Assembly: GCA_964475145.1 (NCBI GenBank)
Contig: CAYYVK010000001.1
Span: forward strand, 6,328 to 70,327
DNA: 64,000 bases
Source: an uncultured archaeon
GTDB taxonomy: Archaea > Aenigmatarchaeota > Aenigmatarchaeia > CG10238-14 > SCSR01
Direction of reading: 5' to 3'
The translations under genes and the position numbers were made by a program. Under the pieces are notes generated by a model. It saw only the letters and a program-made list of their open reading frames with translations. It searched no databases and was not told the origin of the DNA. Positions within the stretch are counted from its first letter, which is position 1. Every line of letters starts with the position of its first letter. Positions 10,544 through 64,000 of the stretch are shown one piece after another.

Positions 10544-11410
10544 ATGTTTAGTGAAATTCGTTTTTTAGTTGCTCTTGTAGGCTCGGTCGTTGGTGGAGCT
10601 TACGATTTGAAGACGACTGAAATTCCTGACATAATTCCGCATGCAATGATAATTTTAGCTTTATTTTTAGCTATCGTGGAATCCTTAATTCAACATAGCT
10701 ACTTACCAATATTCTATAGTTTAGTAGCTGGTCTTCCATTCTTAGCTTTTGGTTTCTTGCTATACTATTTCGGACAATGGGGAGGTGGAGATGCCAAGCT
10801 ACTAGCGGCAATAGTATTTTTGCTGCCAACAAAACCTAATTTTCTAAATTTCAATTTCTTGTTACCTTTTCCACTAACTTATCTTTTAAACGTTCTGTAC
10901 GTTGGAGCTGGATACATGATACTTTATGCGTTAGTTCTTGCTTTCATGGAGAAAAAAATACTAAGAGAGTTCTTCAAAAGAGTGGAAGCATCTGCAACCT
11001 TTTTTTCCTTAGTAGCTCTTGCTTGCTTCATCGCATTTTTTGCTACGAACTTGTACTTTACAAGTGTACTTGATTTAGAAAAAGATCTTTTTATCTTGCT
11101 GAGAAATTCTGTATTGCCACTAGTACTCTTTGTTTCTCTAATTCTTCTTTGGAAGTTTGTGAGAGTTGTTGAAGATGTTGGATTTAAAAAAAGAATTCCA
11201 GTAAGTAAGCTAAAAGTTGGTGACGTGTTGCTCGAATCTAAGAGATGGGATGGAATAACAGAAGCCGAACTTAGAAAAATAAAAAAATCTGGCAAGAAAT
11301 TTGTTACAATAAAGACTGGTGTGAGGTTTGGCCCGGTCTTTTCTTTAGCCCTTTTATTCACATTCTTTTATGGAGACGTTACATTTTTCTTAACTAGATA
11401 TTTGATTTAA
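10544..11410 (+). CDS. type IV prepilin/prearchaellin peptidase (A24 family, FlaK/PibD/EppA-like) with extra C-terminal soluble domain
   Basis: Two catalytic Asp motifs in polytopic membrane context: GGAYDLKT (Asp ~21) and WGGGDAKLLAAIVFLLP (Asp ~83). Confidence 0.7.
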   Translation: MFSEIRFLVALVGSVVGGAYDLKTTEIPDIIPHAMIILALFLAIVESLIQHSYLPIFYSLVAGLPFLAFGFLLYYFGQWGGGDAKLLAAIVFLLPTKPNFLNFNFLLPFPLTYLLNVLYVGAGYMILYALVLAFMEKKILREFFKRVEASATFFSLVALACFIAFFATNLYFTSVLDLEKDLFILLRNSVLPLVLFVSLILLWKFVRVVEDVGFKKRIPVSKLKVGDVLLESKRWDGITEAELRKIKKSGKKFVTIKTGVRFGPVFSLALLFTFFYGDVTFFLTRYLI

Positions 11411-24269: not shown

Positions 24270-25760
24270 TTAAAAAGGATATCCTAAACCTAGTGTAAAC
24301 AAGTAGACGTCAAACATGTCCCTGTTTAGTGTATTCACGTAAGAGACTTCATAACCTTTCTTTACTGGTGTAATAGTAGCTTCTAAAGAGATTTTTTTAG
24401 AGGCGAAAAGGAGCAAAGAAATGAGAAGCATTCTTTCATCATCACCAACTCCACCATCAGTAAAATTGGCTATCCAAGCAGTATTGTAAGCAGGTGTACT
24501 CTTGAGTACTACTCCTGGTATTATCCCTCCGGTCTCTGTTGTATTTTCTGCTTGAATTAACACCCTATTATAATCGTTATCATCTGGAAGTATGATATAA
24601 TATCTTCCCCACCTATTTACCAGGCCAGCAGCTACAGCATGCGCAGGTGGACCCTTACCTGGCTTATTCGGATCTATCTGGTATCCAAACTCGTATCTGA
24701 TAAAATCATAAAACTTGTACTTCGGCTGAAATGTTATGCCAATTTTTCCTTCACGGATATAGCTTAAAAGAAAAGTAAAGTTTTCACTCTGATTGTGAAG
24801 GTTTGGTAACTCGAATTTCTCACCTACACCTACTTTCAAATCAGCAGTACCATTCCAATCTGTGTCGAAGTAAACACTACTAAAGTTGCAAACCCAAAAA
24901 GAATAAGCATAAGGCTCTTCTACATTTTGACTGTCTACTTGATAGACGTAAGATTGTATCTTCAAGCTCCCATTGGTTATGTTTGAACAGTAAGGAGAAG
25001 GTAAAGAACCTTCTGTTTGGATATTACCTGATGGTAGTTGACTTGTTAAAATTGGGGCAGGAATATGGTAAAAATACTTCCAAGGTTGGTAGATTATATC
25101 ACTTGCGTTGCACGGCTTTTCGTCGCATTCGTATGTGACTCTAAATTTGTCGTAATCGGAAAACCTGGAAGTCTCTGTAATTGTCGTGTTAGTTAGCCCG
25201 AATATTTGTTTTGTTCCTAGATCGAGTAAAGTAGCGTTCAAGTCAGAAATCTCAACTATTCCGTTTCCGCTGCTAAGATAAGAATTTAGCATGCTAGTAT
25301 AAGGTGTAAGGTTTCTGTAACCCCAAATTAAAAGAAGGTCAGAACCAAAGTAGCAGGGATTAACAATACCAAGATAACTCGGACAAAACTCAATTCTAAT
25401 AGGTCTATTGTTCACCTCAAGCCCATAGGTCCAGTTGTTCAAAACGCTAATTTGTTCGTCTGTGCAATTACATGCTACAACTATTCTTCCTTTTATTGTC
25501 CCTTGTGTTGTATACCAAAAGACGGTATTGTTACCTAGAACTGTCTTAGTCAGGAAATCGGAAAGTGCATTTCTGTCAAAAGAAACACTGTATAGGATGC
25601 CTATCCTATCAGCAGTAGTTATCACATCTCGTAGTTTTAGAAGTGTGTCTGCAGCATCCCATCCGGTCTCGTAATAAAAAGGTGGGAAAAATATTGTTAG
25701 TGTAACTATCAGAATTATTATGGTTGAAATTGCTTCTATAATAGATATTTGTCCGCGCAT
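24270..25760 (-). CDS. large pilin-like surface glycoprotein with class III (type IV prepilin-like) signal peptide
   Basis: MRG|QISIIEAISTIIILIVTL N-terminus; ~19 N-x-S/T sequons in 496 aa; last gene of pilus locus. Confidence 0.5.
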   Translation of the reverse strand: MRGQISIIEAISTIIILIVTLTIFFPPFYYETGWDAADTLLKLRDVITTADRIGILYSVSFDRNALSDFLTKTVLGNNTVFWYTTQGTIKGRIVVACNCTDEQISVLNNWTYGLEVNNRPIRIEFCPSYLGIVNPCYFGSDLLLIWGYRNLTPYTSMLNSYLSSGNGIVEISDLNATLLDLGTKQIFGLTNTTITETSRFSDYDKFRVTYECDEKPCNASDIIYQPWKYFYHIPAPILTSQLPSGNIQTEGSLPSPYCSNITNGSLKIQSYVYQVDSQNVEEPYAYSFWVCNFSSVYFDTDWNGTADLKVGVGEKFELPNLHNQSENFTFLLSYIREGKIGITFQPKYKFYDFIRYEFGYQIDPNKPGKGPPAHAVAAGLVNRWGRYYIILPDDNDYNRVLIQAENTTETGGIIPGVVLKSTPAYNTAWIANFTDGGVGDDERMLLISLLLFASKKISLEATITPVKKGYEVSYVNTLNRDMFDVYLFTLGLGYPF

Positions 25761-25761
25761 C

Positions 25762-26268
25762 TTACCACACTCTTACACTTATTTTTGCATAAGAGCCTGA
25801 ATCTAAGGCCGCTATTCTAGTTACTTCTGCTATATTCTGTCTGGAAATCTTGGTAGGAGGTGAACAGCTTGCTAAGAGTGTGTTAGAAATTAAGTCTGCA
25901 ATCGTGATCTCAAATTGATAATCTTGTGGTACTCCTAATTTTTCGGCGATGGAATTGTAGTCTGAAGAACATGTTTGATTAAAGGCTTGTATTTTATCGA
26001 GAGAAATTAAGTTTGTTAAATTCTTCAACTCGCTAGAAAGGCCTATTCTCTTTATTTCACCAGGACTCGTTTGGGTCCAATTGAGTGGTTCGCCAAAATC
26101 GTTTACTAAAAGCTCAGAAATCTGGTAAGCTTCTGCTTTTAGAAGCCTATTTCTTATTTCTGCTCTGTACACCGAAGTAGCAGAAATTGTTTGAAAAACT
26201 ATGTATGTGGCAAACATTACAAACAATACTAGAGAAAAATAGTATTCGGAAGATACTTGAGCCTTCAT
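25762..26268 (-). CDS. pilin-like protein (class III signal peptide MKA|QVSSEYYF...)
   Basis: short charged N-terminus then ~20-aa hydrophobic helix; stop/start abuts neighbours. Confidence 0.4.
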   Translation of the reverse strand: MKAQVSSEYYFSLVLFVMFATYIVFQTISATSVYRAEIRNRLLKAEAYQISELLVNDFGEPLNWTQTSPGEIKRIGLSSELKNLTNLISLDKIQAFNQTCSSDYNSIAEKLGVPQDYQFEITIADLISNTLLASCSPPTKISRQNIAEVTRIAALDSGSYAKISVRVW

Positions 26269-27188
26269 ACTACCAGCAACCCTACTCTTGATAAGAACAT
26301 GAATGAAACTAAAACTATCACGCTAAGGATTAAGCTATGTTTTAATCCTGCTATTACAGAATTCTCGCTTATCTGTCCTGCAACCAAGCCAGCAAAGAAT
26401 GCTTGCATAAAAGCCATGTAGAAGAAGAGGGAAACATAGTAGGAGGGTATGCCAGGCTTAACACCAAACAAACTAGTTGAAGTTAGTTCAAAAAGTGCAC
26501 ATATACTGCAAGCTCCAGCTGTACAACTCTCGCAAGGGTTTGTTAGCCCGACTACCTGTCCAAAGGTTGGAGAATAGAAAACAGGCATTAACAAATGATT
26601 GATAAGAACGATTATCACTATGAAAATTATAGTTATAGCATAGATTATTAGCAAGTGTTTATGTAATATGCTTCTCTTCTCCTTTTCTGCCTCTTGCAAG
26701 GTTATCAAGTTGTCTGCAACAGAATCTATGACAGAAACTATCTCACCTCCAGACAAATGAGCCTCTCTTATTATATTCACTGCCATATAAAGCCTTTTAC
26801 TACTTTTTACCCTTTCAGCAAACTGACCTAGAACCTTATCTACACTCATCCCCCAGCTTATTTGATTAGACATCTTCTTTACTTCCAGGCTCAGCCTACC
26901 ATAGCCTATTTTACTAGTTTGTTGTATTGCCTTGTAAAGTGGCATTCCAGAGCTTATAGCTTCTGCCAAATCGTGTAAAAAGTTTGGAAATACTGCCTCC
27001 ATTTCTTTTATGTCTCTGTACTTCTGGTACTGGTAAAGGAAATACATGAAAACTATTGCTAAAGTAGAAACTATTATCCCATTAGCTAAAACTCCCCTGT
27101 CGCCAGTTAAAACACCTATAAGAATAGCTCCTAGTAGAATTGCTCCAGAAATCCCTATCATCCTAATTTCTCTCTTAATTTTATTCAC
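26265..27188 (-). CDS. pilus-assembly platform protein, TadC/FlaJ half-size (T2SS-F domain)
   Basis: 307 aa; cytoplasmic helical domain followed by 3-4 TM helices; paired with a second such gene next to a FlaI/TadA ATPase. Confidence 0.55.
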   Translation of the reverse strand: MNKIKREIRMIGISGAILLGAILIGVLTGDRGVLANGIIVSTLAIVFMYFLYQYQKYRDIKEMEAVFPNFLHDLAEAISSGMPLYKAIQQTSKIGYGRLSLEVKKMSNQISWGMSVDKVLGQFAERVKSSKRLYMAVNIIREAHLSGGEIVSVIDSVADNLITLQEAEKEKRSILHKHLLIIYAITIIFIVIIVLINHLLMPVFYSPTFGQVVGLTNPCESCTAGACSICALFELTSTSLFGVKPGIPSYYVSLFFYMAFMQAFFAGLVAGQISENSVIAGLKHSLILSVIVLVSFMFLSRVGLLVV

Positions 27189-28041
27189 CTCCTGGTGTTG
27201 CTGCCTTTACAAGATAGAGGAAAAGAATCGAAACTGACGGTATTACCACGAAAATCATCATAAATTGGAGGGGAAGTACGTTGCCTCCTCCTATTCCAGA
27301 AATTATTGCAGTTAGGACTGTCATAAAAATAGCTGCAAGAATTATCGCAACAAGGTATATCTCCAAGTAAATCGTCAGGCTGTGAGCAAACTCGTATAAT
27401 TTTCTTCTGTATTCTACCATCATGCTATTGGACTTCTCTTTCAAGTATACATTCAAATCTCCACCTGCTCTTACGATTGAAAGGATTCCGTAAAAGATTT
27501 CACTAAGCTTTTTTGATGGTGACCTTTCAATAGCTCTTTCAAGTGCTGTGTTTACGTCTAGTCCGAACATCTCTATGTCTGTATTAATGGAGTTTATCTC
27601 AGCTGCAATTTCTTCCCTTCCAAACTTGGAAGACATCTTTAAAATTTTTGATAAAGGTAGTTTTGTACTAGCTATAGTTGAAAGATAGAGGAGGGAAAAA
27701 GGTAGTGCGCTATCTATCTTCTTCTCCCTATCTCTAATCAAAAGCTTTGGATAGTTTATGTACAAGTAAAAGAAGATTATAGAGAGGAAGACTGATGTGG
27801 TGAAACCAGTAAAAAATGCAAAAGCAAAGCTTTTAAACAATAATCCGTAGATGAAAGAAAATATAGGCAACTCGAAAAGGAAAACTATTAAGCCTGTTAG
27901 CAAAGATTTGGAAATGAACTCTTCCACAGAAATTTTAGACTTTGATTTTCTTAAATCAGATTTTAAGTCTGGAAAGTAAACTGTAAGCTTGCCCGCATAC
28001 TCGCTGAAAAGTTTGTAGGCAACCCTATCATAGAAACCCAT
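27181..28041 (-). CDS. pilus-assembly platform protein, TadB/FlaJ half-size (T2SS-F domain)
   Basis: 286 aa polytopic membrane protein; overlaps both neighbours by a few nt. Confidence 0.5.
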   Translation of the reverse strand: MGFYDRVAYKLFSEYAGKLTVYFPDLKSDLRKSKSKISVEEFISKSLLTGLIVFLFELPIFSFIYGLLFKSFAFAFFTGFTTSVFLSIIFFYLYINYPKLLIRDREKKIDSALPFSLLYLSTIASTKLPLSKILKMSSKFGREEIAAEINSINTDIEMFGLDVNTALERAIERSPSKKLSEIFYGILSIVRAGGDLNVYLKEKSNSMMVEYRRKLYEFAHSLTIYLEIYLVAIILAAIFMTVLTAIISGIGGGNVLPLQFMMIFVVIPSVSILFLYLVKAATPGGE

Positions 28042-29841
28042 CTAGCTCTCACCCATTACTACTGCCAGAACTCGAACAGGTGATGTATAATAAAGGTTTA
28101 TTACCTGGTACACACTTCTATAATCTGTTATGTTCTTTTTCTTCATCCACTCTAGAATCAAAGCCCTCCTTTGTAGCTCGTCTATCACGTCTTGCTCTGG
28201 TATACCAAACGTCTTTGAAATTTTCTTAAGAGTTAGACTCTTGCCTTGTACATCAAACTTGTCTGTGAAAGAATTCCACTTTAGCACAGTATTTACAGTG
28301 GGTCTTTGAGTCTCAAAATCAAAACCTGTTACCTCTACCACTTCACTCACTCTTCTAACAAACTTTTCTTTATACCTAGCACGAATTAGGAAAACTATCA
28401 AATCTAAGCTTGCAACGAGTGGAGGAGGTAGGGCAATAGGTTGTGTTGTTAATCTGTCAAAAAGTTTATTCATGTCTTCTGCATGTATTGTTGCAAGAGA
28501 TGGGTGACCAGTAGAGATTTGTTGGAATAGGATGTAAGCTTCTTTACCCCTAACCTCCCCAACTACTATATAATCTGGTCTTTGTCTTAGGCTTTCTCTC
28601 AGCAGGTCGAACAAGTCTACCTCTCCTCTTTCTCCCTTACTTATAGCAGTTCTTGCAACAGTAGGAACCCAGTGAGGATGTGGTAACCTTATTTCTGCAG
28701 TATCCTCTATAGAAACGATCTTCTTCTCTGGCCTGATAAAAAGAGAAAGAACGTTTAGCATAGAAGTTTTACCAGTTGCTGTACCACCAGAAATCAGAAT
28801 ACTTCTCCCATAATCTACTGCCAGCCATAAGAATGCTAAAGTCTTTGCATCGACTGTTCCATAGTTCATTAAATGAATAGGCGTTAAAGGCTCTTCTGTG
28901 AATTTTCTGATAGTAAAATTGCTTCCTTTTCTTGCTATGTCTGTGGCTAAAGTTGCTTGTAAACGCGAGCCGTCAGGGAGAGTTCCATCAACCAAAGGTT
29001 CAGCAACTGAAATAGATTTACCGCTTAACTGAGCTAACCTTATTATAAAAGAGTCTAGTTCCTCAGCAGAAGGAAAAACTACATTAGTAACTATAGAGCC
29101 AAAAGCAGGATCTCTATGATAGACAAAAATTGGCACCCCTACTCCGTCGCAAGAAATGTCCTCTATATTCGGGTCTTGCATTAATGGTTCTATTCTTCCC
29201 AAACCAACAAAATCTCTGTTTATGTAGTAATCAAGTATTTCTCTTTCCTCTGGTGTAATTTCTACCTTAAAGTATTTTAGCAATTCACTTATCTGTTGAC
29301 GGATATACTCTCTTGCTTCAGCCACTCCTAATTTAGAGAAGTCTACCTCCAGCCTCTGTTCTAGGAGCTCTCTAAGCTTATTCATCAAACTTTTTATCTT
29401 ATCACTCAAAGGCGGTTCAACTAACTGATAAACATATTTATTTGCCTTTTCGTCCCAGAAGATCCGAGCATAAGCAAAAATCTTTTCACCTTTTTTTGGA
29501 TTTCTTGGAATTAAAGGATATATGGTGACTCCTTTTTTAATTTCTACAGCTTCTTTTTTTCCTATCCCAACTTTTTTAATTTCTGTTGGAATCTCTAATC
29601 CCTCTTCTACCTTTACTTCTTTTCGAATGGCTGGTTTTTCTACTTCCTTAGGAACTTCTACACCACCTATCATTGGCCGAATCTTTAACGGTACTTCTAT
29701 CACACCTCCAGTAGACTTTATAGCTAAAGAAACTCCCAGCGGGCCTATTCCTGCTCCTTCTGCTTCAGCACTCTTAGCTTCCGTTAGGACTTTCTTCGCA
29801 CCCCTAATCATTTTTCTTGCTACTATTTTAGCTATCCTCAT
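28042..29841 (-). CDS. type IV pilus/archaellum-family secretion ATPase (FlaI/TadA/VirB11-like) with ~120-aa Lys/Glu-rich N-terminal extension
   Basis: Walker A ILISGGTATGKTS; DYIVVGEVRG Walker B/Asp box; His box TGHPSLATIHAED. Confidence 0.8.
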   Translation of the reverse strand: MRIAKIVARKMIRGAKKVLTEAKSAEAEGAGIGPLGVSLAIKSTGGVIEVPLKIRPMIGGVEVPKEVEKPAIRKEVKVEEGLEIPTEIKKVGIGKKEAVEIKKGVTIYPLIPRNPKKGEKIFAYARIFWDEKANKYVYQLVEPPLSDKIKSLMNKLRELLEQRLEVDFSKLGVAEAREYIRQQISELLKYFKVEITPEEREILDYYINRDFVGLGRIEPLMQDPNIEDISCDGVGVPIFVYHRDPAFGSIVTNVVFPSAEELDSFIIRLAQLSGKSISVAEPLVDGTLPDGSRLQATLATDIARKGSNFTIRKFTEEPLTPIHLMNYGTVDAKTLAFLWLAVDYGRSILISGGTATGKTSMLNVLSLFIRPEKKIVSIEDTAEIRLPHPHWVPTVARTAISKGERGEVDLFDLLRESLRQRPDYIVVGEVRGKEAYILFQQISTGHPSLATIHAEDMNKLFDRLTTQPIALPPPLVASLDLIVFLIRARYKEKFVRRVSEVVEVTGFDFETQRPTVNTVLKWNSFTDKFDVQGKSLTLKKISKTFGIPEQDVIDELQRRALILEWMKKKNITDYRSVYQVINLYYTSPVRVLAVVMGES

Positions 29842-30263
29842 CAGCTTACCCCTAAAATATTTTTATCTTTTTCTAATGTTAAAGTTATAGGCTTAATCGA
29901 GTAAGAAAAGCCGTTGAAAAGAAGTGTATAGTTTAAATTGTGTAAGGATGACTTATCTGCGACTCCTCCTGGTTGAGTAATTACACTAGACTGATTGTTG
30001 CTAAAACTTATCTCTGTGTAATAACCTCCTGTCATGTTCTGGAGTTTGAAAGAAAGAGCAGCATAATCACATATTTTACATTCAGCAAGAAGGTTTATAG
30101 CAATCGCTGAAACGTAGCTATTAACCAATTTTCTGTGACCAGAAGCAACGTCTTCTCTAAATAGGTCGGACTGAAGTTTAAAAAAGTATCCTAATGCTCC
30201 TAGTATGCTTATGCTTAAGACAAAGAAAATTACAAATTGTACTACGACTGTTTGAGCTTTCAT
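29841..30263 (-). CDS. pilin-like protein (MKA|QTVVVQFVIFFVL...)
   Basis: class III-like signal peptide; 140 aa. Confidence 0.4.
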   Translation of the reverse strand: MKAQTVVVQFVIFFVLSISILGALGYFFKLQSDLFREDVASGHRKLVNSYVSAIAINLLAECKICDYAALSFKLQNMTGGYYTEISFSNNQSSVITQPGGVADKSSLHNLNYTLLFNGFSYSIKPITLTLEKDKNILGVS

Positions 30264-30874
30264 CCTAAAAGAATTTTTACTTTTGTTATAGTTAAACCTT
30301 CTGGAGTTGTGGTTATTTCACCCCTAGATATACCTATTGTTTTACCAGTAGAGGTTGTGGGACCTGTTACCTCTAACTCGATCTTCTGTCTTACATTAGG
30401 GTTGCTTGGGTCTACTAGCTCTCTAAACCATATTTTGTAAGTGATGTTGTAACCGTCTCCAAAAGGATCTGCACGACCACAAGTAACGAAAGAGTTACTT
30501 CCTAGGTATGCTGAATCTGAAGGAGATACACAATTATCGCCAGCCAAGAGTGCAACCCAGTCTCCTGTTGCTGCTAGGTTAGTAGCTTTGCTAAAAAAAG
30601 TAAACTGAATACTGTTACTTGCAGTTTCAATTATCCATATGCCGTCTACGTCTAATTTAAACGTATCATACCCACCCTTGTTAGCAACGGTTGTTATCTT
30701 TCTTTGTAAGGAGTTTGGATTGTTTGGGTCAAAATATCCAGCTACTCTTTCTGTTACAGACCTGCTCTGCATTTTTTGTATTAACGGCAAACCCCATGTA
30801 TATGCCATCGCAACAAGTGTTATGGCTATTAGCACTACCAAAACAGCAGAAATGATCTCACTCACACCTTTCAT
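30260..30874 (-). CDS. type IV pilin (archaeal class III signal peptide MKG|VSEIISAVLVVLIAITLVA)
   Basis: Textbook prepilin/prearchaellin N-terminus; first pilin of locus. Confidence 0.6.
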   Translation of the reverse strand: MKGVSEIISAVLVVLIAITLVAMAYTWGLPLIQKMQSRSVTERVAGYFDPNNPNSLQRKITTVANKGGYDTFKLDVDGIWIIETASNSIQFTFFSKATNLAATGDWVALLAGDNCVSPSDSAYLGSNSFVTCGRADPFGDGYNITYKIWFRELVDPSNPNVRQKIELEVTGPTTSTGKTIGISRGEITTTPEGLTITKVKILLG

Positions 30875-34410: not shown

Positions 34411-34442
34411 CTTTTATAGATATTTAAAAGGAATTTTATCTT

Positions 34443-53774: not shown

Positions 53775-53849
53775 AAGTTAAATTTTGTTATCTGAAAATA
53801 AATGCTTAGGAAGACATTTTCTTGAGTGCCAGCCTCAAAAGATTAGAAG

Positions 53850-55955: not shown

Positions 55956-56627
55956 ATGAAAAGTTCAGAGGAAGAGAGAAAAAGGTTGGTAGAAACTCTA
56001 GAGAAAAGGGGGTATATTCGCAGCAAAGAGGTTAAGGAAGCAATGCTGAAAGTCAAAAGAGAGGACTTTGTTCCAGAAGAATATAAAAAAGATGCTTATC
56101 TAGATACACCACTTCCAATCCCAGGTAATGTAACTATATCTGCACCCCATAGCTAAGGGGAAATGCATGCAATCTCCCTAGAAGCTCTGCAGCTTAAACC
56201 TAGAGAAAAGTTTTTGGAAGTTGGCGCTGGCTCAGGAATAATGCTTGCTTATGCTTACGAAATAATTAGAAGCAAGGAGAAAGTTTTTGGGATAGAGATT
56301 GTTCCAGAAGCTTACAAGTTTGGAAAAGAAAATTTGGAAAAAGCAGGATATGGCAACAAAGTTAAGCTTGTTCTTGGAGATGGTTCTTTAGGATTGCCCA
56401 ACTATGCCCCATTCGATAAGGTCTTAATAAGTGCTGCATGCCCAGATATACCCAAACCGTTAAAGGAGCAGACTAAAGTTGGAGGGAGAATAGTCGCAGT
56501 TATTGGTTTACCACATGGGGATCAACACCTTGTTTTAGTTGAAAAAACAAAAGGTGGAAAATTTTTAAGAAAAAAACTTTTACCTGTAGTTTTTGTTCCG
56601 CTAGTTGGAGAGTACGGATGGAAATAA
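55956..56627 (+). pseudogene. pcm: protein-L-isoaspartate O-methyltransferase (pcm) interrupted by in-frame TAA; either pseudogene or split gene (66-aa N-fragment 55956..56156 and 154-aa C-fragment 56163..56627 with its own AAGGGG RBS)
   Basis: ...TISAPHS*GEMHAISLEALQL versus canonical contiguous TISxPHM; downstream SAM motif LEVGAGSGIMLAYAY. Confidence 0.6.
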
Positions 56628-57646: not shown

Positions 57647-57748
57647 TGGGGTCGACGGGATTCGAACCCGCACACCGAGGTTTCCTCATCAAATCAGAGC
57701 TCCATTCAGCTGGAGCCTCGTGTCACTACCAGGTTAGACGACGACCCC
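57647..57748 (-). tRNA. tRNA-Trp (CCA) with 28-nt intron at canonical 37/38 position
   Basis: GGGGTCG-TC-GTCT-AACCTGGTAG-TGAC-A-CGAGG-CTCCAG[CTGAATGGAGCTCTGATTTGATGAGGAA]A-CCTCG-GTGT-GCGGG-TTCGAAT-CCCGT-CGACCCC-A; intron UGGAG pairs with anticodon loop. Confidence 0.8.
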
Positions 57749-57790: not shown

Positions 57791-59866
57791 ATGGGTAAAC
57801 CTTCTCAGGAAGCAGAAAAACCAAAAATTTCTCCTGAATACATGGAATTCCTCCTTGCAGAAATCCGCGCTAGAAAGCCTAAAGGGTTCTACGAAAGGCT
57901 GTGCAAGCTTGCTGAAAAGCTGAGGTTAAATCCGCCAAAGCAGTTTGCTGAAAAGCTGAACTATGATGTTGTATACTCAGGCTTAAACGTTACTCCAACA
58001 GGCGTCTTTTCTGCATCTTTTCTGCTCTTGTTTATTTTTTCTTTTGTTTGCTTTTTCTTCTCTTTTTTGATATCTGACGTTGCATTGCTCATAATCCTGG
58101 CAGTTTTGCCGATTGTACTCTTTTGGTATGTTTTTACCTATCCTTCCTACCAAGCAGAAGTTACGAGAATACAAGCTGGCAACGAAGCTATAAAGTTAAT
58201 ACTCTACATGGCAATTTACCTTAAGTCTAACCCCAGCTTTGAGGGTGCAGTACAGTTTGCTGTACAGCATTCAAAAGGACCGATAAGCGATGATATAAGA
58301 AAAGCTTTTTGGGACCTAGAGACTGGTAAGTACAGGACAGTAGAAGAGGCTCTAGGCGTTTATTCACAGAAATGGGTTTGGTGGAACGAAGATTTCGTCC
58401 GCTCACTAAACTTGCTTTACACGATACTTGTAGAGCCGAGTGAAAAAGGAAGAGAAGAAATTCTCAAAAAAGCGTTAGACCATATACTCATAACAACTCA
58501 TAGAAAGATGAAAGCTTATGTAGAAGAAATATCCGGTCCTATATCCATTTTGCACATTCTAGGCTTGCTACTACCAGCGTTGGGAATAGTAATGTTTCCA
58601 ATGATAGCAATTTTTCTACAGAATTCTGTAAGCATTCCTCAACTCATCGTAGGCTACATTGTATTCCTGCCGATTTTAAACTTGTTCTTTGTTAACAGGT
58701 TGCTTAGAAAAAGGCCTGGTGCTTTCATGGCCCCTGATGTTTCTAAGCATCCTGACCTACCACCACCAAACTTTTTTGCTGTAAAAATAGGTAAGGTGAA
58801 GCTGATAGTGCCAGTTTTCTTGCTATCCCTACTAGTTGGTATGATAACAATGATGTACGGTGCTTACCACTTCCTCAACCTAGGCATGACTATTTCATCA
58901 CTACCGCCTGATATCGTGAAGAAGGTTGTGCTAGAAGAGGCTGGCATAAACGTGAAAAACTTCCTTGTAGTTACTTCTTTTGTAGGTGGTTTTGCGATTT
59001 TTTTCATCTTGAACTACTATCTCAGAAGTGTGCAGAGGATAAAGGTAAGGAATGAAATAAAAGAGATAGAAAGGGATTTTACTGCTTGCATGTTTTCCTT
59101 AGGCAATTTCTTCTCAGAAGGGTACCCTATAGAGTTTGGAATAGGTAAGGCTATAGACGAGTACAGGAGGCTTGGGATGGAAAAAAGACCAACCTATGGC
59201 TTTTTGGTAAGGCTTTATGAGACTATGAAGAATTTTGGTGTGAGCTTTAAGTCTGCCCTTTTTGGTGAAAGGTTTATGCTGATAAAACATTATCACTCAG
59301 TCCTGATAGAGGATACTATGAGAATACTTGCTGATGCTTCTGAAAAGGGTTCCTATTTTTTGGGAACGGTTGCAAAAACACTTTCTAACTATCTAGAAAG
59401 CATATACACGATAGAAGATAGAATAAGGGAACTTTTAGCTGAGACTAGAAGCTCGATAAAGATGCAAGCGAGCTTTGTCATTCCTATGATAAACGGAATA
59501 ATCATGGCTCTTTCAGCTTTTATAGTCAACATGCTCAGGATACTGGCAGAAATGATAGGTAAAATTCAACAGATGTTTGGAATAAGCTTGAGTAGGATGG
59601 CTGGAAAGGATTTGCTAACTATTTTAATCGGAAACTACGAGAACATGGTTCCATCCACACTCCTTCAGGCAGTGATAGGAATATATACTGTTGAAGCAAT
59701 TGCAATTTTTTCTATACTCTTGAGTGGGATAGAAAACGGTATAGATCCTGTTGCGAAGGATTGGGAAATTTCTAACAACTTGATTAAAGGCATGGCACTG
59801 TTTTTCTTGATATACTTGGTAGCACTTTTTGTTTTTGGAAACATCCTAACCAGTGTTCAACCATGA
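57791..59866 (+). CDS. large polytopic membrane protein, possible full-length FlaJ/TadC-like pilus platform protein
   Basis: 691 aa; two cytoplasmic helical domains each followed by TM clusters; precedes five pilin-like ORFs. Confidence 0.4.
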   Translation: MGKPSQEAEKPKISPEYMEFLLAEIRARKPKGFYERLCKLAEKLRLNPPKQFAEKLNYDVVYSGLNVTPTGVFSASFLLLFIFSFVCFFFSFLISDVALLIILAVLPIVLFWYVFTYPSYQAEVTRIQAGNEAIKLILYMAIYLKSNPSFEGAVQFAVQHSKGPISDDIRKAFWDLETGKYRTVEEALGVYSQKWVWWNEDFVRSLNLLYTILVEPSEKGREEILKKALDHILITTHRKMKAYVEEISGPISILHILGLLLPALGIVMFPMIAIFLQNSVSIPQLIVGYIVFLPILNLFFVNRLLRKRPGAFMAPDVSKHPDLPPPNFFAVKIGKVKLIVPVFLLSLLVGMITMMYGAYHFLNLGMTISSLPPDIVKKVVLEEAGINVKNFLVVTSFVGGFAIFFILNYYLRSVQRIKVRNEIKEIERDFTACMFSLGNFFSEGYPIEFGIGKAIDEYRRLGMEKRPTYGFLVRLYETMKNFGVSFKSALFGERFMLIKHYHSVLIEDTMRILADASEKGSYFLGTVAKTLSNYLESIYTIEDRIRELLAETRSSIKMQASFVIPMINGIIMALSAFIVNMLRILAEMIGKIQQMFGISLSRMAGKDLLTILIGNYENMVPSTLLQAVIGIYTVEAIAIFSILLSGIENGIDPVAKDWEISNNLIKGMALFFLIYLVALFVFGNILTSVQP

Positions 59867-60249
59867 GCGACGTAGGCAAGATGCTGGCACAAGTTATTTA
59901 TGTAACAGTAGCAATAGCTGCAATGATAATTTTTGTCCTTCTAGTTCAGCAGAGAAAGGTTGAGGAATGTAGTCAAGTAATCTACGGCAATGCCCTGGAA
60001 GCCTTGGGTAAACTGAGAGTCTGTGTGAACAACTGTTGGTCTAAGCATGACTTTGGAAGGAGTAGCATGAACGAAGACTGTTACGTAGTAAAATTTATTT
60101 CTTCTGGAAGCATAGACAAGGATACTGCTGAAAAAATTCTTAGCAACCCAGCAAAAGTATCTTTTCTTGTTGATGTGCAACCAAACGTAGAAACTATTTT
60201 GCGAGTTAGGTACAATTCTACTGGAATCGTACAGATAATTCCTTATTAA
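59863..60249 (+). CDS. pilin-like protein (N-terminal hydrophobic helix)
   Basis: 128 aa; MSDVGKMLAQVIYVTVAIAAMIIFVLL. Confidence 0.3.
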   Translation: MSDVGKMLAQVIYVTVAIAAMIIFVLLVQQRKVEECSQVIYGNALEALGKLRVCVNNCWSKHDFGRSSMNEDCYVVKFISSGSIDKDTAEKILSNPAKVSFLVDVQPNVETILRVRYNSTGIVQIIPY

Positions 60250-60269
60250 TTGCTTACTTAAATATTTTT

Positions 60270-60764
60270 ATGAAGGGTATTGCAATTTCTACTGTAGCTC
60301 TGTTTATAATTGCTGTTTTTGTTGTCGTAATGCTTATAATTTTCATAGGGTCGAACTTTTCCCCTGCTTTGAGGAGTGCATACTGCTCTTTGCTAATAGG
60401 GTTGAGAGGTTTCCTTCCTTTGCCAGAAAGCTTAAAGCCTGGATTGCCTACTTACTGCAAGGAAGACGTATATCCACAGACTTATTACATAGAATCCGAC
60501 CAGCCTGACAAGATAGCTTATGAGGTTGCTTCTTACATTCTGGCATGCTGGGAGGTTACTGGAAGAGTAGACTTGAAAGCGAACAGGACATGCTCAGAAG
60601 TTGTTATAAAGCGTATACAGGGAGTTGTAGACAAGAGTTTAGTTATGAGTAAACTACCTGAAAATTATCGAAACATATTTGATTGGAAAGCTGATATCAT
60701 CGATAGACCAAAATCTTTAGGTATACTGTACGAATACCCAAGCAAGAAGGTGGTGGTTGTATGA
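60270..60764 (+). CDS. pilin-like protein, class III signal peptide MKG|IAISTVALFIIAVF
   Basis: 164 aa. Confidence 0.45.
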   Translation: MKGIAISTVALFIIAVFVVVMLIIFIGSNFSPALRSAYCSLLIGLRGFLPLPESLKPGLPTYCKEDVYPQTYYIESDQPDKIAYEVASYILACWEVTGRVDLKANRTCSEVVIKRIQGVVDKSLVMSKLPENYRNIFDWKADIIDRPKSLGILYEYPSKKVVVV

Positions 60765-61156
60765 AAGGATTCATGGTACTAGAGTATCCGTTCAAGATGC
60801 TGCTCTACCTAGTTGTAATAGTAGTGGTAATCGGTATCATCCTGTTTTTCAGGAAAGAAATCATGTCTGGTTTAAACTTTTGCTGGATAGGAGGGTGCCA
60901 CCCAGAACCGTGCAAGACTGTAAGAGTAAACGAAGCTTCTATCGATACATCAGTGCTAGACAAGTACTGTAACCTCTGCTGGCAGAAGACTGGTAAAATA
61001 GGTTTGAAGGAAGATTGTTTGTGCTATGTCGTGAGCGGAAGTTTTACTCCCTTTGCTTACACATCAGAACATTGTGTGCTTAAGTGTAACTCTAACTCAC
61101 AGTTTGTCACGTTTACTTACAGCCATTTGTTTAATCAGATATTTATAGAGTGTTGA
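60761..61156 (+). CDS. pilin-like protein with G|FxxxE motif (MKG|FMVLEYPF...)
   Basis: 131 aa; 6 Cys in C-terminal domain. Confidence 0.5.
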   Translation: MKGFMVLEYPFKMLLYLVVIVVVIGIILFFRKEIMSGLNFCWIGGCHPEPCKTVRVNEASIDTSVLDKYCNLCWQKTGKIGLKEDCLCYVVSGSFTPFAYTSEHCVLKCNSNSQFVTFTYSHLFNQIFIEC

Positions 61157-61157
61157 G

Positions 61158-61595
61158 ATGGAGTTGAAGTACGTTGCTGCAGTAATAGTTGCTTTTGTAG
61201 TAATGATAGTGTTTTTTGGTTTTTATGCTGGTTTGTTCAAATTAAATGTTGGGTTTAACCAGCATGTTGACGTAAAGTATGCTTGCTCCAAATTGAATGG
61301 AACGACAATCTCAAAGATGGATTTGGAAACGATACTATATGGGTTTCTTACTGACCAGTGCAACTATTTTGAGTTTAATTTGACCGAAAGTCTGCAGATT
61401 AGTGAAATAGAAAGGATTGTACACAAGATAGACAATAAGGTAGAAGTACTACCAAAGAACGATTGCAAGCTACCTTTGACTGCTACGAACACTGTTTTTG
61501 TCTGCTGCTCTGATCCTTTAGAACAAGGAAAACGAATAAATATCTCAAAAAGACAAATTACTTATAGTGATGTGCTGATATGCCAAAAGGAATAA
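61158..61595 (+). CDS. pilin-like/hydrophobic N-terminus protein
   Basis: 145 aa; MELKYVAAVIVAFVVMIVFFGF. Confidence 0.3.
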   Translation: MELKYVAAVIVAFVVMIVFFGFYAGLFKLNVGFNQHVDVKYACSKLNGTTISKMDLETILYGFLTDQCNYFEFNLTESLQISEIERIVHKIDNKVEVLPKNDCKLPLTATNTVFVCCSDPLEQGKRINISKRQITYSDVLICQKE

Positions 61596-62440
61596 GTGCC
61601 CTAGAAATTATATTTGCTATGTTCATTCTTATAGTCGTTGCTTTTGTAGTCATTAGGCTTTTTACAGGAGTTGTAAGCCCTAGCACTTTACCGAACATAC
61701 AAGACTTCAAGGATACATACAACTACCAGCGAGAAAAGCAGAAATGTGAAAACTTGTGCAACAGGTTTATAGAAAGCAACTGTCAAGACTACAGTGCAGC
61801 AGCTTCCTATTGCTTGCAGAAAGTAGCTGTAAGCATAGACGGAAATTCTGTTACAGGAGAAAAGGGACATTATGGAATGGTTGCTAATCTACCCTATTGT
61901 GAAGATGGATTGTACTGTTTTCATGTAAGCGATTGTGTGTGCGGGAGCATTAAGCTTGATGCAAAAAATTGCTTGACCTACCTTGATACCTATTATAGGG
62001 AGGTTGCAGGTTTTGACGAGGATACGACAAAGCGGCTAATATGTTCTGACACTGGTGTGAAATATGGTTCGTGCTGTCCTCAACCAACCACGTGTAACCC
62101 AAAGCAGTGGAGCATAAAGCCGAAAGGGTTTGACGAAAGTACTTACCCAGACATAGACGCAACTCATTGGTGGGTGAACGCAGGATATAAAAGGTATTGC
62201 ACAGGTGGAGGTGGAGCACTTAGTTTAGATTGTACTGGTGGTAGTGGAACTATAACATGTAATTGGGATAATTGTGAGATTACAAGTGGAGAAGGAATAC
62301 TCACCGTGGATACTAAAACTCATATTGTTAATACCGTAAGAGGTTCATATACATTTTCAGGTTTATCTCCAGGAGTGTATAAGGCTGTACTCAGTTGTGA
62401 TAATGGTGTTGAAATTCGAGGAAACATTATAGTAGGGTAA
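61580..62440 (+). CDS. pilin-like protein with class III signal peptide (MPKG|ISALEIIFAMFILIVVAF) and Cys-rich extracellular domain
   Basis: 286 aa; >20 Cys; Gly-rich GGGGALSLDCTGGSG. Confidence 0.5.
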   Translation: MPKGISALEIIFAMFILIVVAFVVIRLFTGVVSPSTLPNIQDFKDTYNYQREKQKCENLCNRFIESNCQDYSAAASYCLQKVAVSIDGNSVTGEKGHYGMVANLPYCEDGLYCFHVSDCVCGSIKLDAKNCLTYLDTYYREVAGFDEDTTKRLICSDTGVKYGSCCPQPTTCNPKQWSIKPKGFDESTYPDIDATHWWVNAGYKRYCTGGGGALSLDCTGGSGTITCNWDNCEITSGEGILTVDTKTHIVNTVRGSYTFSGLSPGVYKAVLSCDNGVEIRGNIIVG

Positions 62441-62910
62441 TTATTAGTAGAAAAAATATTACCAACTTAAGGATGTAACTTTTCTGTAGGAGTAATACAT
62501 TTATTGGGACTAACTTGGATCTCTGTCAGTTCGTAGTCCTAAATCATTCATAGTAGACTGTTCCAGCGATTACATATTAACGCAACAAGAAGCCTTTATC
62601 AATCAAAAATATTGGGCGTCGTAGGCAAGGTGGTTGGTTTAAGTGTTATAAAGATAAGACGTACCAGTCATACGAATAACGGTAAGTCATGAAGCTATTA
62701 GGAAGAGATGAAAGAAACTAAAAATCGTTCTCTAATAACTTTCCTTATAGAGATGCTGCTATTAATGAAATGAGTGAATTCCTAAGATTGTTTGTATTCT
62801 AGTACAACTGCATAATAGCATACGAGTTTAAGTAAAACATCTATGAAATTAGAAGAGTGTTAAGTTGATAGTATGAAAAGTTTAAATCGTTAGAAAGCTA
62901 AAATATTAAT

Positions 62911-64000
62911 ATGTTAAAAAGGATGTTTTTAGTATTTCCTGTTTTCATGCTTTTGTTAATTTCTGTAGTTAAGGCAGGTTGTATAGAGTCTATAGGATAT
63001 CCTCCAGCTTATCCAGGTATCGATCCTTGGTGCTCTTTACCTGGTAATGTGTGTCAACAAGGAGATGGTATATTTGGTACGCTTAAAACCACTGGTTGCC
63101 CCTCAACACCGAGTGTTCAAATCGAAATAAAAGGAGATGGTTGCTCTATAACAGATACCTTTTCTGCAGGCAGGTACTACTGCAGTGGGCCTGGCTGTTG
63201 GTACGAATATCTATGGTACATCCCACAACTGCCTTCCGGCTGCCTTGGAAAAATAGTTACTGTTACTGTTACATCAGAAGGTGTGTCGGCATCAAAAACT
63301 ATAAAGCTTTCTACAGATTCTACTAGAGACAATCCTCCGACAATGCCTAAGCCAGGAGAGTGGTCAGTATCACCTATATATTCAACGGATAAAGTGTCGT
63401 ATACTGCTTATGCTGAAGATGATAAAGGATTGAAAGAAATAAAAATTTTAGCTATGATCAACGGTCAACCATGGACTGTAGTTAAAGTGTGTTCCGTCTC
63501 TGGAACTTCTGCCTCCTGCACGTATACAGGAGGGCCTTATCCTGCTGACACTGAAGTTTGCTTCAAGGGTGCTGCAACTGATACAAGAGGTCAAGAAGCA
63601 AGTAGCACAGATGTTGGTGCGAGAGCAGAGTGTCAGCGTGTCCTTAGCCCGCCACATGACACAGATAACGGTAAAAATTATACGACAAAAGGTGTATGCA
63701 TAGATACAAGAACATGGGAAGACTTCTGCCCGTGGGAAGGGCCTAGAGGATATTGTTGTGGTATTTTGCCAGGGTATTACTGGCATGTTATAAACTTGTC
63801 AACGGACGGAACAGTTACTTGCTGCAGAACAAGCTCACCAAAACCCGTTGGAGGCTGTTTGGAAACAAGGATAATAAACTGTAAAAATGTTTTGGGAGAA
63901 TATTACCCAAGTGCTAGAGAGTGTAGCTTAGAACTATATGATTGCTCGAAAGAGGGAAAGACTTGCTTTAACGGAGCTTGTGTTTCTGGAATACCGACAA
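62911..64000 (+). CDS. secreted Cys-rich protein, 3' end beyond window
   Basis: ATG at 62911, open to window end (>360 aa); signal peptide MLKRMFLVFPVFMLLLISVVKAG; many Cys; not in ORF track because no stop. Confidence 0.5.
   Translation, partial: MLKRMFLVFPVFMLLLISVVKAGCIESIGYPPAYPGIDPWCSLPGNVCQQGDGIFGTLKTTGCPSTPSVQIEIKGDGCSITDTFSAGRYYCSGPGCWYEYLWYIPQLPSGCLGKIVTVTVTSEGVSASKTIKLSTDSTRDNPPTMPKPGEWSVSPIYSTDKVSYTAYAEDDKGLKEIKILAMINGQPWTVVKVCSVSGTSASCTYTGGPYPADTEVCFKGAATDTRGQEASSTDVGARAECQRVLSPPHDTDNGKNYTTKGVCIDTRTWEDFCPWEGPRGYCCGILPGYYWHVINLSTDGTVTCCRTSSPKPVGGCLETRIINCKNVLGEYYPSARECSLELYDCSKEGKTCFNGACVSGIPT

What the first reader, a model, noticed from the sequence alone, without database searches (positions are those of the whole stretch)
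57791..64000. Second pilus-like locus: platform-like membrane protein followed by five pilin-like ORFs, two with bacterial-style G|FxxxE / G|IxxxE prepilin motifs, and Cys-rich secreted proteins
Downstream of tRNA-Trp, a 691-aa two-repeat membrane protein (FlaJ/TadC-like) is followed by coupled ORFs with class III signal peptides: MKG|IAIST, MKG|FMVLE (Phe+1, Glu+5 as in bacterial type IV pilins) and MPKG|ISALE (Glu+5). The C-terminal domains are unusually Cys-rich (>20 Cys in the 286-aa protein). The locus ends with a >360-aa Sec-secreted Cys-rich protein. No ATPase is present, so it may share the locus-1 ATPase. Disulfide-rich pilins in an archaeon are unusual.
Basis: partly seen in the sequence, partly recalled or inferred. 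Interest (0 to 1): 0.6.

Follow-up and report, generated by a model that had tools for sequence, protein, structure and literature searches.

The report
ATPase-less pilus operon with cysteine-rich pilins
A tiny symbiotic archaeon (Aenigmatarchaeota) carries a conserved operon with a very divergent pilus-assembly membrane platform but no motor ATPase, followed by cysteine-rich pilin-like and adhesin-like surface proteins; it is a new variant of the known type IV pilus machinery and probably serves cell attachment.

Summary
The window comes from an Aenigmatarchaeota (DPANN) genome. At 57791-62440 it carries six tightly coupled genes: a 691-aa polytopic membrane protein and five small proteins, each with one N-terminal hydrophobic helix. 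A Cys-rich secreted protein follows and is cut off by the window end.

The 691-aa protein has no Pfam hit of its own. It is nonetheless a divergent T2SSF (PilC/TadC/FlaJ) platform, on three grounds:
- Relatives give borderline PF00482 hits in both halves.
- A sister clade sits directly behind a ~745-aa T2SSE ATPase.

Three small proteins (164, 131 and 286 aa) have canonical class III signal peptides. A Peptidase_A24 prepilin peptidase lies at 10544-11410. The cysteines are conserved in even numbers across orthologues, which implies disulfides.

The operon is conserved across Aenigmatarchaeota and continues past the window with six more genes, including protease-like and VWA-like modular pilins. 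It never contains an ATPase. Compact relatives encode platform A, a pilin, the ATPase and platform B together. The likely partner is therefore that ATPase encoded elsewhere, not the locus-1 ATPase.

Corrections: the 286-aa protein has 18 Cys, not more than 20, and disulfide-rich archaeal pilins have precedent. Verdict: a new variant of a known kind, of moderate interest.

The parts
57647..57748 (-). tRNA-Trp (anticodon CCA) with an intron. It marks the upstream border of the operon.
   Evidence: Rfam RF00005 scores 44.3 bits. ARAGORN missed it. The anticodon was read by eye from the sequence.
57791..59866 (+). 691-aa polytopic membrane protein. It is a divergent T2SSF (PilC/TadC/FlaJ) platform paralogue of the 'orphan' clade, which has no adjacent ATPase.
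59863..60249 (+). 128-aa bitopic protein with an N-terminal hydrophobic helix and no K/R-G cleavage motif (MSDVGKML). Its ectodomain has 4 fully conserved Cys. It is probably an uncleaved membrane-anchored accessory subunit.
   Evidence: Its start overlaps the platform stop codon by 4 nt.
60270..60764 (+). 164-aa pilin-like protein with the class III signal peptide MKG|IAIST and 4 invariant Cys. It is the most widely conserved partner of the platform, and the only pilin in the compact loci L039 and L052.
60761..61156 (+). 131-aa pilin-like protein starting MKG|FMVLE, with 10 Cys, 9 of them conserved in at least 95% of orthologues.
   Evidence: A weak Flp1_like hit covers the N-terminal helix (E = 0.0011, below the cut-off).
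61158..61595 (+). 145-aa pilin-like protein. Orthologues start MKG|IALEY, but this genome and its 89% relative start MELKYV, so the K-G site is lost. It has 4 core conserved Cys.
61580..62440 (+). 286-aa modular pilin-like protein. It starts MPKG|ISALE, and the Glu+5 is conserved in the family. It has a helical Cys-rich core with 10 invariant Cys and the motif PYCEDGLYCFH. A variable FN3-like beta-sandwich forms the C-terminus. Total 18 Cys.
62441..62910 (.). 470-bp AT-rich non-coding spacer, probably holding the promoter for the distal genes.
   Evidence: No ORF, no Rfam family. The sequence is shown.
62911..64000 (+). 5' part of a 700-aa Sec-type secreted Cys-rich protein, with 24 Cys in the 363 aa inside the window. 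It is variable between genomes. The orthologue in L068 has a faint Dockerin_1 hit. It is a putative adhesin or cargo protein.
10544..11410 (+). Peptidase_A24 class III signal (prepilin) peptidase. It is the enzyme expected to process the pilin-like proteins.
   Evidence: Pfam PF01478, E = 7.1e-10, 39.7 bits against a cut-off of 26.5.
24270..30874 (-). Locus 1, given as context. It is a complete separate type IV pilus system. It has a 599-aa T2SSE ATPase (28042-29841), two short T2SSF platform genes (27181-28041 and 26265-27188) and four pilin-like genes (24270-25760, 25762-26268, 29841-30263, 30260-30874).

Best explanation
The locus is the proximal half of a 13-gene operon that is conserved across Aenigmatarchaeota. 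It belongs to a type IV filament (pilus-like) system.

**Components.** The first gene encodes a highly divergent T2SSF-family platform protein. It is followed by a fixed series of small proteins. Their N-termini are class III signal peptides followed by a hydrophobic helix, and their ectodomains are locked by conserved disulfides. Next come larger modular pilin-like proteins and secreted proteins carrying FN3-like, protease-like, VWA-like and dockerin-like modules.

**Proposed mechanism (inferred).**
1. The Peptidase_A24 at 10544-11410 cleaves after the K/R-G motif of the 164-, 131- and 286-aa proteins.
2. The platform feeds the mature subunits from the membrane into a short filament or tip complex that displays the adhesin and enzyme modules.
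3. Energy comes from a T2SSE ATPase encoded in trans.

**Which ATPase.** Comparative genomics shows that this platform is one of two platform paralogues of a two-platform system: platform A, a pilin, a ~745-aa ATPase and platform B. In this lineage, platform A and an expanded pilin set have been separated from the ATPase and platform B module. The partner is therefore most likely that ATPase, lying outside the window, rather than the locus-1 ATPase.

**Likely role.** Attachment to, or interaction with, a host cell or surface, as expected for a DPANN episymbiont living in hot springs.

**Shown versus inferred.** Gene content, motifs, conservation, fold similarity and synteny are shown. Cleavage, disulfide formation, filament assembly, the identity of the ATPase and the biological role are inferred.
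For: **Platform identity**
- PF00482 hits occur in 10 of 33 homologues. Two are just above the gathering score and cover profile positions 3-125 in the first half. Hits in the second half occur in P0071 and P0072.
- Six of 10 more distant representatives give T2SSF or Spore_III_AB hits in one half or the other.
- The family is large, with 1187 clusters at 50% identity.

**Context**
- A neighbour-joining tree splits the family in two. In one clade 9 of 13 members sit directly behind a ~745-aa T2SSE ATPase. In the other clade, which includes the window protein, none of about 48 has an adjacent ATPase, and most are followed by homologues of the 128-, 164- and 131-aa proteins.
- L039 and L052 show the compact arrangement platform A, pilin, ATPase, platform B.
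- The ATPase, the platform-B paralogue, or both lie within 10 kb in L006, L018, L020, L023, L024, L063, L038, L039 and L052.

**Pilin-like proteins**
- The K/R-G motifs followed by a hydrophobic stretch are conserved across orthologues.
- The pattern is specific: 6 of 121 ORFs match, and all six lie in the two pilus loci.
- Peptidase_A24 is present in the window.

**Disulfides**
- Cys columns are 95-100% conserved and even in number: 4, 4, about 10, 4 and 10 invariant.
- Cys content is 2.4-7.6% in these proteins against a 1.08% background.

**Operon extent and modules**
- See L001, L065 and L068.
- The motif HExGHxxGLCDE is conserved in 8 of 9 members of the 423-aa family.
- PF00092 VWA and a weak Peptidase_C25 hit occur in the 89% relative, behind the same pilin-like N-termini.

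**Literature**
- DPANN type IV pilus islands made of unrecognisable pilins have been described (PMC6393860).
- Two platform genes occur in DPANN type IV filament systems, and Cys-bonded pilins with an extra C-terminal domain occur in subsystem 4E (10.64898/2026.04.22.720090; PMC4858521).
Against: - The window protein itself has no Pfam, NCBIfam or PDB sequence hit.
- hhalign against the locus-1 T2SSF proteins is weak: probability 4.5% and 30%.
- No internal repeat is detectable by hhalign.
- None of the small proteins hits any pilin or archaellin Pfam family at significance.
- Two of the five small proteins lack the cleavage motif in this genome.
- The ~745-aa ATPase was not shown to exist in this genome. 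It is absent from the 57 kb upstream and at least 10 kb downstream, and from within 10 kb in the 89% relative.
- There are no expression or proteomic data.
Confidence: 0.7

Rival explanations
1. The operon is a self-contained second pilus locus, and its platform is driven by the 599-aa T2SSE ATPase of locus 1 (28042-29841).
For: Locus 1 holds the only T2SSE ATPase in the 64-kb window. No ATPase lies within 10 kb downstream, nor within 10 kb in the closest long-contig relative.
Against: Locus 1 already has its own two platform genes and four pilins, so it is a complete system. In relatives, this platform family is linked to a different ATPase type. That type is about 745 aa long, has a Cys-rich N-domain, and matches the locus-1 ATPase at only E of about 1e-33. 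The link is either direct adjacency or proximity within 10 kb.
Confidence: 0.15
2. The operon does not build an extended pilus. One option is a short pseudopilus or secretion-type device, working like a type II secretion system, that pushes the large Cys-rich proteins and the protease or VWA modules through the S-layer. The other is a bindosome-like arrangement in which class III signal peptides only anchor and display surface proteins.
For: - There is a fixed set of five or more different small pilin-like genes in conserved order and no obvious single major pilin.
- Large secreted Cys-rich, protease-like and VWA proteins are co-encoded.
- The modelled 286-aa protein lacks a pilin fold.
- From my own knowledge, the Sulfolobus bindosome is a precedent for class III signal peptides on proteins that are not pilins.
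Against: No secretin-like or other conduit component was found. The compact relatives need only one pilin together with the ATPase and two platforms, which is the typical composition of a pilus system. These tools cannot distinguish the two alternatives.
Confidence: 0.13
3. The 691-aa protein is an unrelated transporter or a decayed platform remnant, and the small ORFs are ordinary single-pass membrane proteins.
For: The window protein has no direct Pfam, NCBIfam or PDB sequence hit. Foldseek against the PDB is not significant.
Against: - Thirty-four columns are invariant and many more nearly invariant across homologues of 25-89% identity.
- There are 1187 family clusters.
- T2SSF and SpoIIIAB hits recur in relatives.
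- A sister clade is fused in operons to T2SSE ATPases.
- The class III motif is specific to the two pilus loci.
Confidence: 0.02

Closest known systems
Archaeal type IV filament systems with two platform genes (system 1 and subsystem 4A in DPANN archaea; Makarova et al. 2016, PMC4858521; bioRxiv 10.64898/2026.04.22.720090)
   Same: - A T2SSF-type platform followed downstream by pilins and accessory or adhesin genes.
- Two platform paralogues per system. The compact relatives L039 and L052 encode platform A, a pilin, the ATPase and platform B.
- A class III signal peptidase in the genome.
   Different: - Here the platform A operon is physically separated from any ATPase, so it lacks a core component that the published models require.
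- The platform is about 700 aa long with two repeats and is barely recognisable by PF00482.
- The pilin set is expanded to about ten genes, and none of them belongs to a known pilin family.
Thermoproteales type IV pilus subsystem 4E (Pyrobaculum and Thermoproteus)
   Same: - Almost all components carry multiple conserved cysteines that are predicted or shown to form disulfides.
[quoted passage not shown]
- The organisms live in hot environments.
   Different: - The phylum is different, and no sequence similarity was detected.
- The 4E loci include their own ATPase and short TadC-like proteins.
Bacterial modular type IV pilins, for example Streptococcus sanguinis PilB with a VWA module (PMC8179133)
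   Same: A pilin-type N-terminus is grafted onto functional modules. In the distal genes of this operon and its relatives, the modules are FN3-like, zincin-like (HExxH), C25-peptidase-like and VWA.
   Different: - This is an archaeal system with no sequence homology to the bacterial proteins.
- A pilin fold in the N-terminal module has not been shown.
- The module assignments here are weak, apart from the VWA domain in the 89% relative.
Bacterial Tad pilus platform pair TadB/TadC and the type II secretion pseudopilin set GspG-K
   Same: Two platform paralogues serve one ATPase. A fixed set of about five different pilin-like subunits is encoded in conserved order.
   Different: - Each platform here already contains two T2SSF repeats.
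- There is no secretin and no outer membrane.
- The resemblance to the pseudopilin set is only numerical and organisational.

Membership tests
T2SSF platform proteins (GspF/PilC/TadC/FlaJ; Pfam PF00482) | A significant match to the PF00482 profile | tested here: inconclusive
   The window protein gives no hit at E <= 1. Ten of 33 homologues hit at E < 0.01. P0011 (25.4 bits) and P0035 (25.7 bits) are just above the gathering score of 25.2. Six of 10 distant representatives give sub-threshold T2SSF or Spore_III_AB hits.
T2SSF platform proteins (GspF/PilC/TadC/FlaJ; Pfam PF00482) | Two tandem T2SSF repeats, each a cytoplasmic helical bundle followed by TM helices | tested here: inconclusive
   PF00482 hits fall in the first half in P0010, P0011, P0026 and P0035, and in the second half in P0071, P0072, P0280, P0283 and P0287. 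The AF2 secondary structure shows two similar blocks of helical bundle plus TM helices. hhalign of the N-half against the C-half is not significant (E = 0.27).
T2SSF platform proteins (GspF/PilC/TadC/FlaJ; Pfam PF00482) | A cytoplasmic domain with the GspF/PilC helical-bundle fold | tested here: met
T2SSF platform proteins (GspF/PilC/TadC/FlaJ; Pfam PF00482) | Gene adjacent to, or co-operonic with, a T2SSE ATPase | tested here: not met
   No ATPase is in the operon here or in about 48 members of the same clade. The sister clade is ATPase-adjacent in 9 of 13 cases, and the compact loci L039 and L052 have the ATPase one gene away.
Type IV pilins / archaeal class III signal peptide proteins | An N-terminal [KR]-[GA] cleavage motif followed by a hydrophobic helix of about 20 residues | tested here: met
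   It is met for the 164-, 131- and 286-aa proteins (KGIAIS, KGFMVL, KGISAL), using my own FlaFind-like pattern, and is conserved in orthologues. It is not met for the 128-aa protein (MSDVGKML) or for the 145-aa protein in this genome (MELKYV; its orthologues have MKGIALEY).
Type IV pilins / archaeal class III signal peptide proteins | A cognate prepilin peptidase (Peptidase_A24, PibD/FlaK/EppA) in the genome | tested here: met
   The ORF at window 10544-11410 hits PF01478 at E = 7.1e-10 with 39.7 bits, above the cut-off of 26.5.
Type IV pilins / archaeal class III signal peptide proteins | A pilin fold: a long N-terminal alpha-helix packed on an antiparallel beta-sheet | tested here: not met
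Type IV pilins / archaeal class III signal peptide proteins | A match to a known pilin or archaellin family (for example PF04021 Class_IIIsignal, PF07790 Pilin_N, PF01917 archaellin, PF07963 N_methyl) | tested here: not met
   No such hit appears at E <= 1. The only related signals are a sub-threshold Flp1_like match to the hydrophobic helix of the 131-aa protein (E = 0.0011) and a ComGE match for the 286-aa protein (E = 0.074).
Type IV pilins / archaeal class III signal peptide proteins | Cleavage in vivo and polymerisation into a filament | not testable with these tools
   This needs proteomics with N-terminal mapping, and EM or cryo-ET of cells or enrichments.
Bacterial-type type IV pilin signature (G|F-x-x-x-E) | Phe (or Met/Leu) at +1 and Glu at +5 relative to the cleavage site, both conserved | tested here: inconclusive
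   In the 286-aa family, G|x-x-A-L-E with Glu at +5 is conserved. In the 131-aa family, Phe+1 and Glu+5 hold in this genome and its 89% relative, but most orthologues have G|(F/L/M)ALE with Glu at +4, or lack the K-G entirely. The 164-aa family has no conserved Glu.

The most novel reading that the evidence does not exclude
Aenigmatarchaeota have evolved a dedicated second platform paralogue that is genetically uncoupled from any ATPase. It docks in trans onto a shared ATPase, or forms a heteromer with platform B. This reprograms one motor to assemble a distinct filament or tip complex that is disulfide-stabilised and built from about ten non-canonical pilin-like subunits. The structure displays swappable enzyme and adhesin modules: zincin-like or C25-like protease, VWA, FN3 and dockerin-like. 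In this reading it is a specialised apparatus for host attachment or host-envelope processing in a DPANN episymbiont.
Probability: 0.25. Interest if true: 0.7.

Novelty: new variant of a known kind. Interest (0 to 1): 0.5.

Why it matters
DPANN archaea depend on physical contact with host cells, but the molecules that mediate contact are mostly unknown. Their surface genes are annotated as hypothetical.

This operon is conserved across Aenigmatarchaeota, and its platform family alone spans more than 1000 sequence clusters. Pfam does not detect it, and type IV filament detection models that require an ATPase in the locus would miss it.

The work gives a concrete, testable candidate for an attachment or host-interaction apparatus. 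It offers:
- defined cleavage sites;
- conserved disulfide patterns;
- protease-like and VWA-like modules fused to pilin-type N-termini.

It also provides a natural case in which a platform protein has been separated from its motor ATPase. That bears on how platform paralogues specify which filament a type IV machine builds. The general category, an archaeal type IV pilus-like system with Cys-rich components, is already known.

Tried and rejected
- **Direct family searches.** Pfam and NCBIfam scans of the six window proteins gave nothing significant.
- **Profile search of solved structures.** The platform-family profile found no PilC or GspF in the PDB sequences. The only hit was an irrelevant channel at E = 0.26.
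- **Comparison with locus 1.** hhalign of the platform profile against the two locus-1 T2SSF proteins was weak, with probabilities of 4.5% and 30%. These comparisons were limited by the single-sequence templates.
- **Internal repeat.** hhalign of the N-half against the C-half was negative.
- **Regulatory signals.** The sigma-70 promoter and intrinsic terminator scan was uninformative for an archaeon, with counts close to those of shuffled sequence.
- **Extending the contig.** Relatives were used instead.
- **Rejected reading, unrelated transporter.** See rival 3.
- **Rejected reading, chance Cys-richness.** The Cys columns are 95-100% conserved and even in number.
- **Rejected reading, locus ends at the Cys-rich protein.** It continues for six more genes.

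Full report
**1. What is in the sequence**

The window has about 37% G+C. All close protein matches are to Candidatus Aenigmatarchaeota MAGs, many of them from hot springs.

- 57791-59866, 691 aa
- 59863-60249, 128 aa
- 60270-60764, 164 aa
- 60761-61156, 131 aa
- 61158-61595, 145 aa
- 61580-62440, 286 aa

They overlap or abut, so they form one operon. A 470-bp spacer follows. A further ORF then starts at 62911 and runs off the window. On an identical metagenomic contig it is 700 aa long.

Upstream, Rfam finds an intron-containing tRNA on the minus strand at 57647-57748. ARAGORN missed it. Reading the sequence, the anticodon is CCA, so it is tRNA-Trp.

The quoted N-termini are exact: MKGIAIST, MKGFMVLE and MPKGISALE. 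The 286-aa protein has 18 Cys, not more than 20.

**2. The 691-aa protein is a divergent T2SSF platform**

It has about nine hydrophobic segments. It has no Pfam, NCBIfam or PDB sequence hit of its own. Four lines of evidence still place it in the GspF/PilC/TadC/FlaJ superfamily.

- **Pfam hits in relatives.** Ten of 33 homologues hit PF00482 at E < 0.01, and two are just over the gathering score. Hits fall in the first half in some members (profile positions 3-125) and in the second half in others. Six of 10 more distant representatives give T2SSF or Spore_III_AB hits.
- **Gene context in the sister clade.** Members sit directly behind a ~745-aa T2SSE ATPase.
- **Downstream genes.** The protein is followed by proteins with class III signal peptides.

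The negative or weak results were Foldseek against the PDB, hhalign against the locus-1 T2SSF proteins and an internal-repeat test. The family is large, with 1187 clusters at 50% identity at E <= 1e-3.

**3. The small proteins**

I wrote a FlaFind-style pattern that also requires a downstream hydrophobic stretch. It matches 6 of 121 ORFs of at least 60 aa. Three are in locus 1. The other three are the 164-, 131- and 286-aa proteins.

The motifs are conserved in orthologues taken from 60 related loci:
- The 164-aa family has MKG|IALST.
- The 131-aa family has MKG|(F/L/M)ALE. Some members lack the K-G.
- The 145-aa family has MKG|IALEY.
- The 286-aa family has (K/R)KG|xNALE(I/L)VF, with Glu consistently at +5.

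The 145-aa protein of this genome and of its 89% relative starts MELKYV, so it has lost the K-G site. The 128-aa family (MEVGKxL) never has one, so it is more likely an uncleaved bitopic accessory protein.

A Peptidase_A24 prepilin peptidase is encoded at 10544-11410.

**4. Cysteines**

Background Cys content in the window is 1.08%. The five small proteins have 2.4-7.6%, and the partial 700-aa protein has 6.6%.

The Cys positions are conserved in even numbers:

| Protein family | Conserved Cys |
|---|---|
| 128 aa | 4 of 4, at 100% |
| 164 aa | 4 of 4, at 100% |
| 131 aa | 9 of 10, at 95% or more |
| 145 aa | 4 core positions, at 100% |
| 286 aa | 10 invariant, including the motif PYCEDGLYCFH |

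All of them lie after the N-terminal helix, on the outside of the cell. This strongly implies structural disulfides.

It is not unprecedented. Makarova et al. 2016 describe multiple conserved cysteines in almost all components of Thermoproteales subsystem 4E (PMC4858521). A 2026 preprint notes a 4E pilin with Cys bonds and an extra C-terminal domain (10.64898/2026.04.22.720090).

**5. Extent and conservation of the operon**

On the identical contig L001 the operon continues past the 700-aa protein with six more genes:
- 187 aa
- 423 aa, starting MKGVAYE, with 36 Cys and a HEFGHTFGLCDEG zincin-like motif
- 210 aa
- 255 aa, starting MKAQASL
- 375/389 aa, with a KGQ motif and a DTSAS (DxSxS) motif
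- 462 aa

The same gene families recur in the same order in many Aenigmatarchaeota. L065 shows a compact 11-gene version flanked by housekeeping genes, with no ATPase.

In the 89% relative L068, the proteins at equivalent positions carry other modules. They have a faint Dockerin_1 hit, a weak Peptidase_C25 hit and a clear PF00092 VWA hit. These sit behind the same pilin-like N-termini. This points to swapping of C-terminal modules.

The HExGHxxGLCDE motif is conserved in 8 of 9 members of the 423-aa family.

**6. Where is the ATPase?**

The only T2SSE ATPase in the window is the 599-aa protein of locus 1 (28042-29841). Locus 1 is itself complete, with two short T2SSF genes and four pilin-like genes. 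It resembles the "system 1" type with two platform genes described for methanogens and DPANN (10.64898/2026.04.22.720090).

A neighbour-joining tree of the platform homologues from the fetched loci gives two clades:
- **ATPase-adjacent clade.** Nine of 13 members have a ~745-aa T2SSE ATPase directly upstream.
- **Orphan clade.** This includes the window protein. None of about 48 members has an adjacent ATPase, and most are followed by homologues of the 128-, 164- and 131-aa proteins.

L039 and L052 contain both paralogues in one compact system. The order is an orphan-type platform, one 164-type pilin, a 743-aa ATPase with a Cys-rich N-domain, and a second platform.

In L006, L018, L020, L023, L024 and L063, part or all of the ATPase and platform-B module lies within 10 kb of the orphan-type operon.

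The most parsimonious reading is that the 691-aa protein is one of two platform paralogues of a two-platform system. In this lineage it has been separated from the ATPase and platform-B module. I could not verify that this genome has that module. It is not in the window, not within 10 kb downstream, and not within 10 kb in the 89% relative.

**7. Mechanism and rivals**

- **Best explanation (confidence about 0.7).** The operon builds a type IV filament-type surface structure. Its subunits are processed by the A24 peptidase, assembled on this platform and powered in trans. The structure is stabilised by disulfides and displays adhesin or enzyme modules, probably for attachment to a host cell or a surface.
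- **Rival 1 (0.15).** It uses the locus-1 ATPase.
- **Rival 2 (0.13).** It is a pseudopilus, secretion device or bindosome-like display system rather than a long pilus.
- **Rival 3 (0.02).** The 691-aa protein is an unrelated transporter or a decayed remnant.

**8. Novelty**

The general class is known. The literature covers archaeal type IV pilus diversity, DPANN islands of unrecognisable pilins (PMC6393860), Cys-rich 4E components (PMC4858521), and the generic presence of FlaI/FlaJ and type IV pili in Aenigmarchaeota (PMC8407114).

What appears to be undescribed is this specific conserved operon:
- an ATPase-uncoupled, Pfam-invisible platform paralogue;
- its fixed set of Cys-rich pilin-like proteins;
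- its modular distal genes.

All members seen are annotated as hypothetical proteins. I rate it a new variant of a known kind, with interest 0.5.

Noticed in passing
window 55956-56156 and 56163-56627 (+): The protein-L-isoaspartate O-methyltransferase (PCMT) gene is split into 66-aa and 154-aa ORFs. The split falls exactly inside the conserved ISAPH|MHA motif, through an inserted TAA followed by GGGGAA and ATG. The 89% relative L068 has the same split with 13 nt of spacing instead of 12, which puts the second ORF in a different frame. This argues for a genuine two-piece gene rather than stop-codon readthrough. L065 has an intact 218-aa PCMT.
   Followed up: partly
L001 17896-19167 (about 7.9-9.2 kb downstream of the 691-aa platform gene's start, beyond the window end): A 423-aa protein has a pilin-type N-terminus (MKGVAYE), 36 Cys and a HEFGHTFGLCDEG motif. 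The motif is conserved in 8 of 9 orthologues and resembles the HExxHxxGxxD zincin type. A weak Reprolysin hit was found (E = 0.01). In the 89% relative, the same N-terminal module carries a weak Peptidase_C25 match instead. It looks like a modular pilin with swappable protease domains.
   Followed up: partly
L001 20515-21684; L068 20375-21760: The distal pilin-like protein carries a conserved DxSxS (MIDAS-like) motif. The protein at the equivalent position in the 89% relative has a clear PF00092 VWA domain behind an MKAQASLITK N-terminus.
   Followed up: partly
window 53397-53774 (-): A 125-aa ORF has an N-terminal hydrophobic helix, 12 Cys (9.6%) and a poly-Thr stretch. It lies next to the AMP phosphorylase gene and has no Pfam hit. 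It is conserved at the same position in L001 and L068.
   Followed up: no
window 51859-55923 (-): A three-gene AMP-salvage cluster typical of DPANN and other archaea. It holds an AMP/thymidine phosphorylase-like gene (513 aa), form III RuBisCO (413 aa) and a ribose-1,5-bisphosphate isomerase of the IF-2B family (279 aa).
   Followed up: no
window 19653-23072 (-): The ribonucleotide reductase large subunit (1139 aa) is interrupted by an intein that carries a PI-PfuI-type LAGLIDADG homing endonuclease.
   Followed up: no
window 34314-34411 (+): This is a second intron-containing tRNA. Rfam scores it at 43 bits. ARAGORN reports an undetermined identity with a 4-base anticodon 'taat', which is probably an artefact of the intron.
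   Followed up: no
L039 12759-14990; L052 7046-9280: The ~745-aa T2SSE ATPase that partners this platform family in relatives has a Cys-rich N-terminal domain (MPCDYTxEEGxxxVNCIGCxHE...). It resembles the Cys-rich N-domains noted for some archaeal type IV pilus ATPases in PMC4858521.
   Followed up: no
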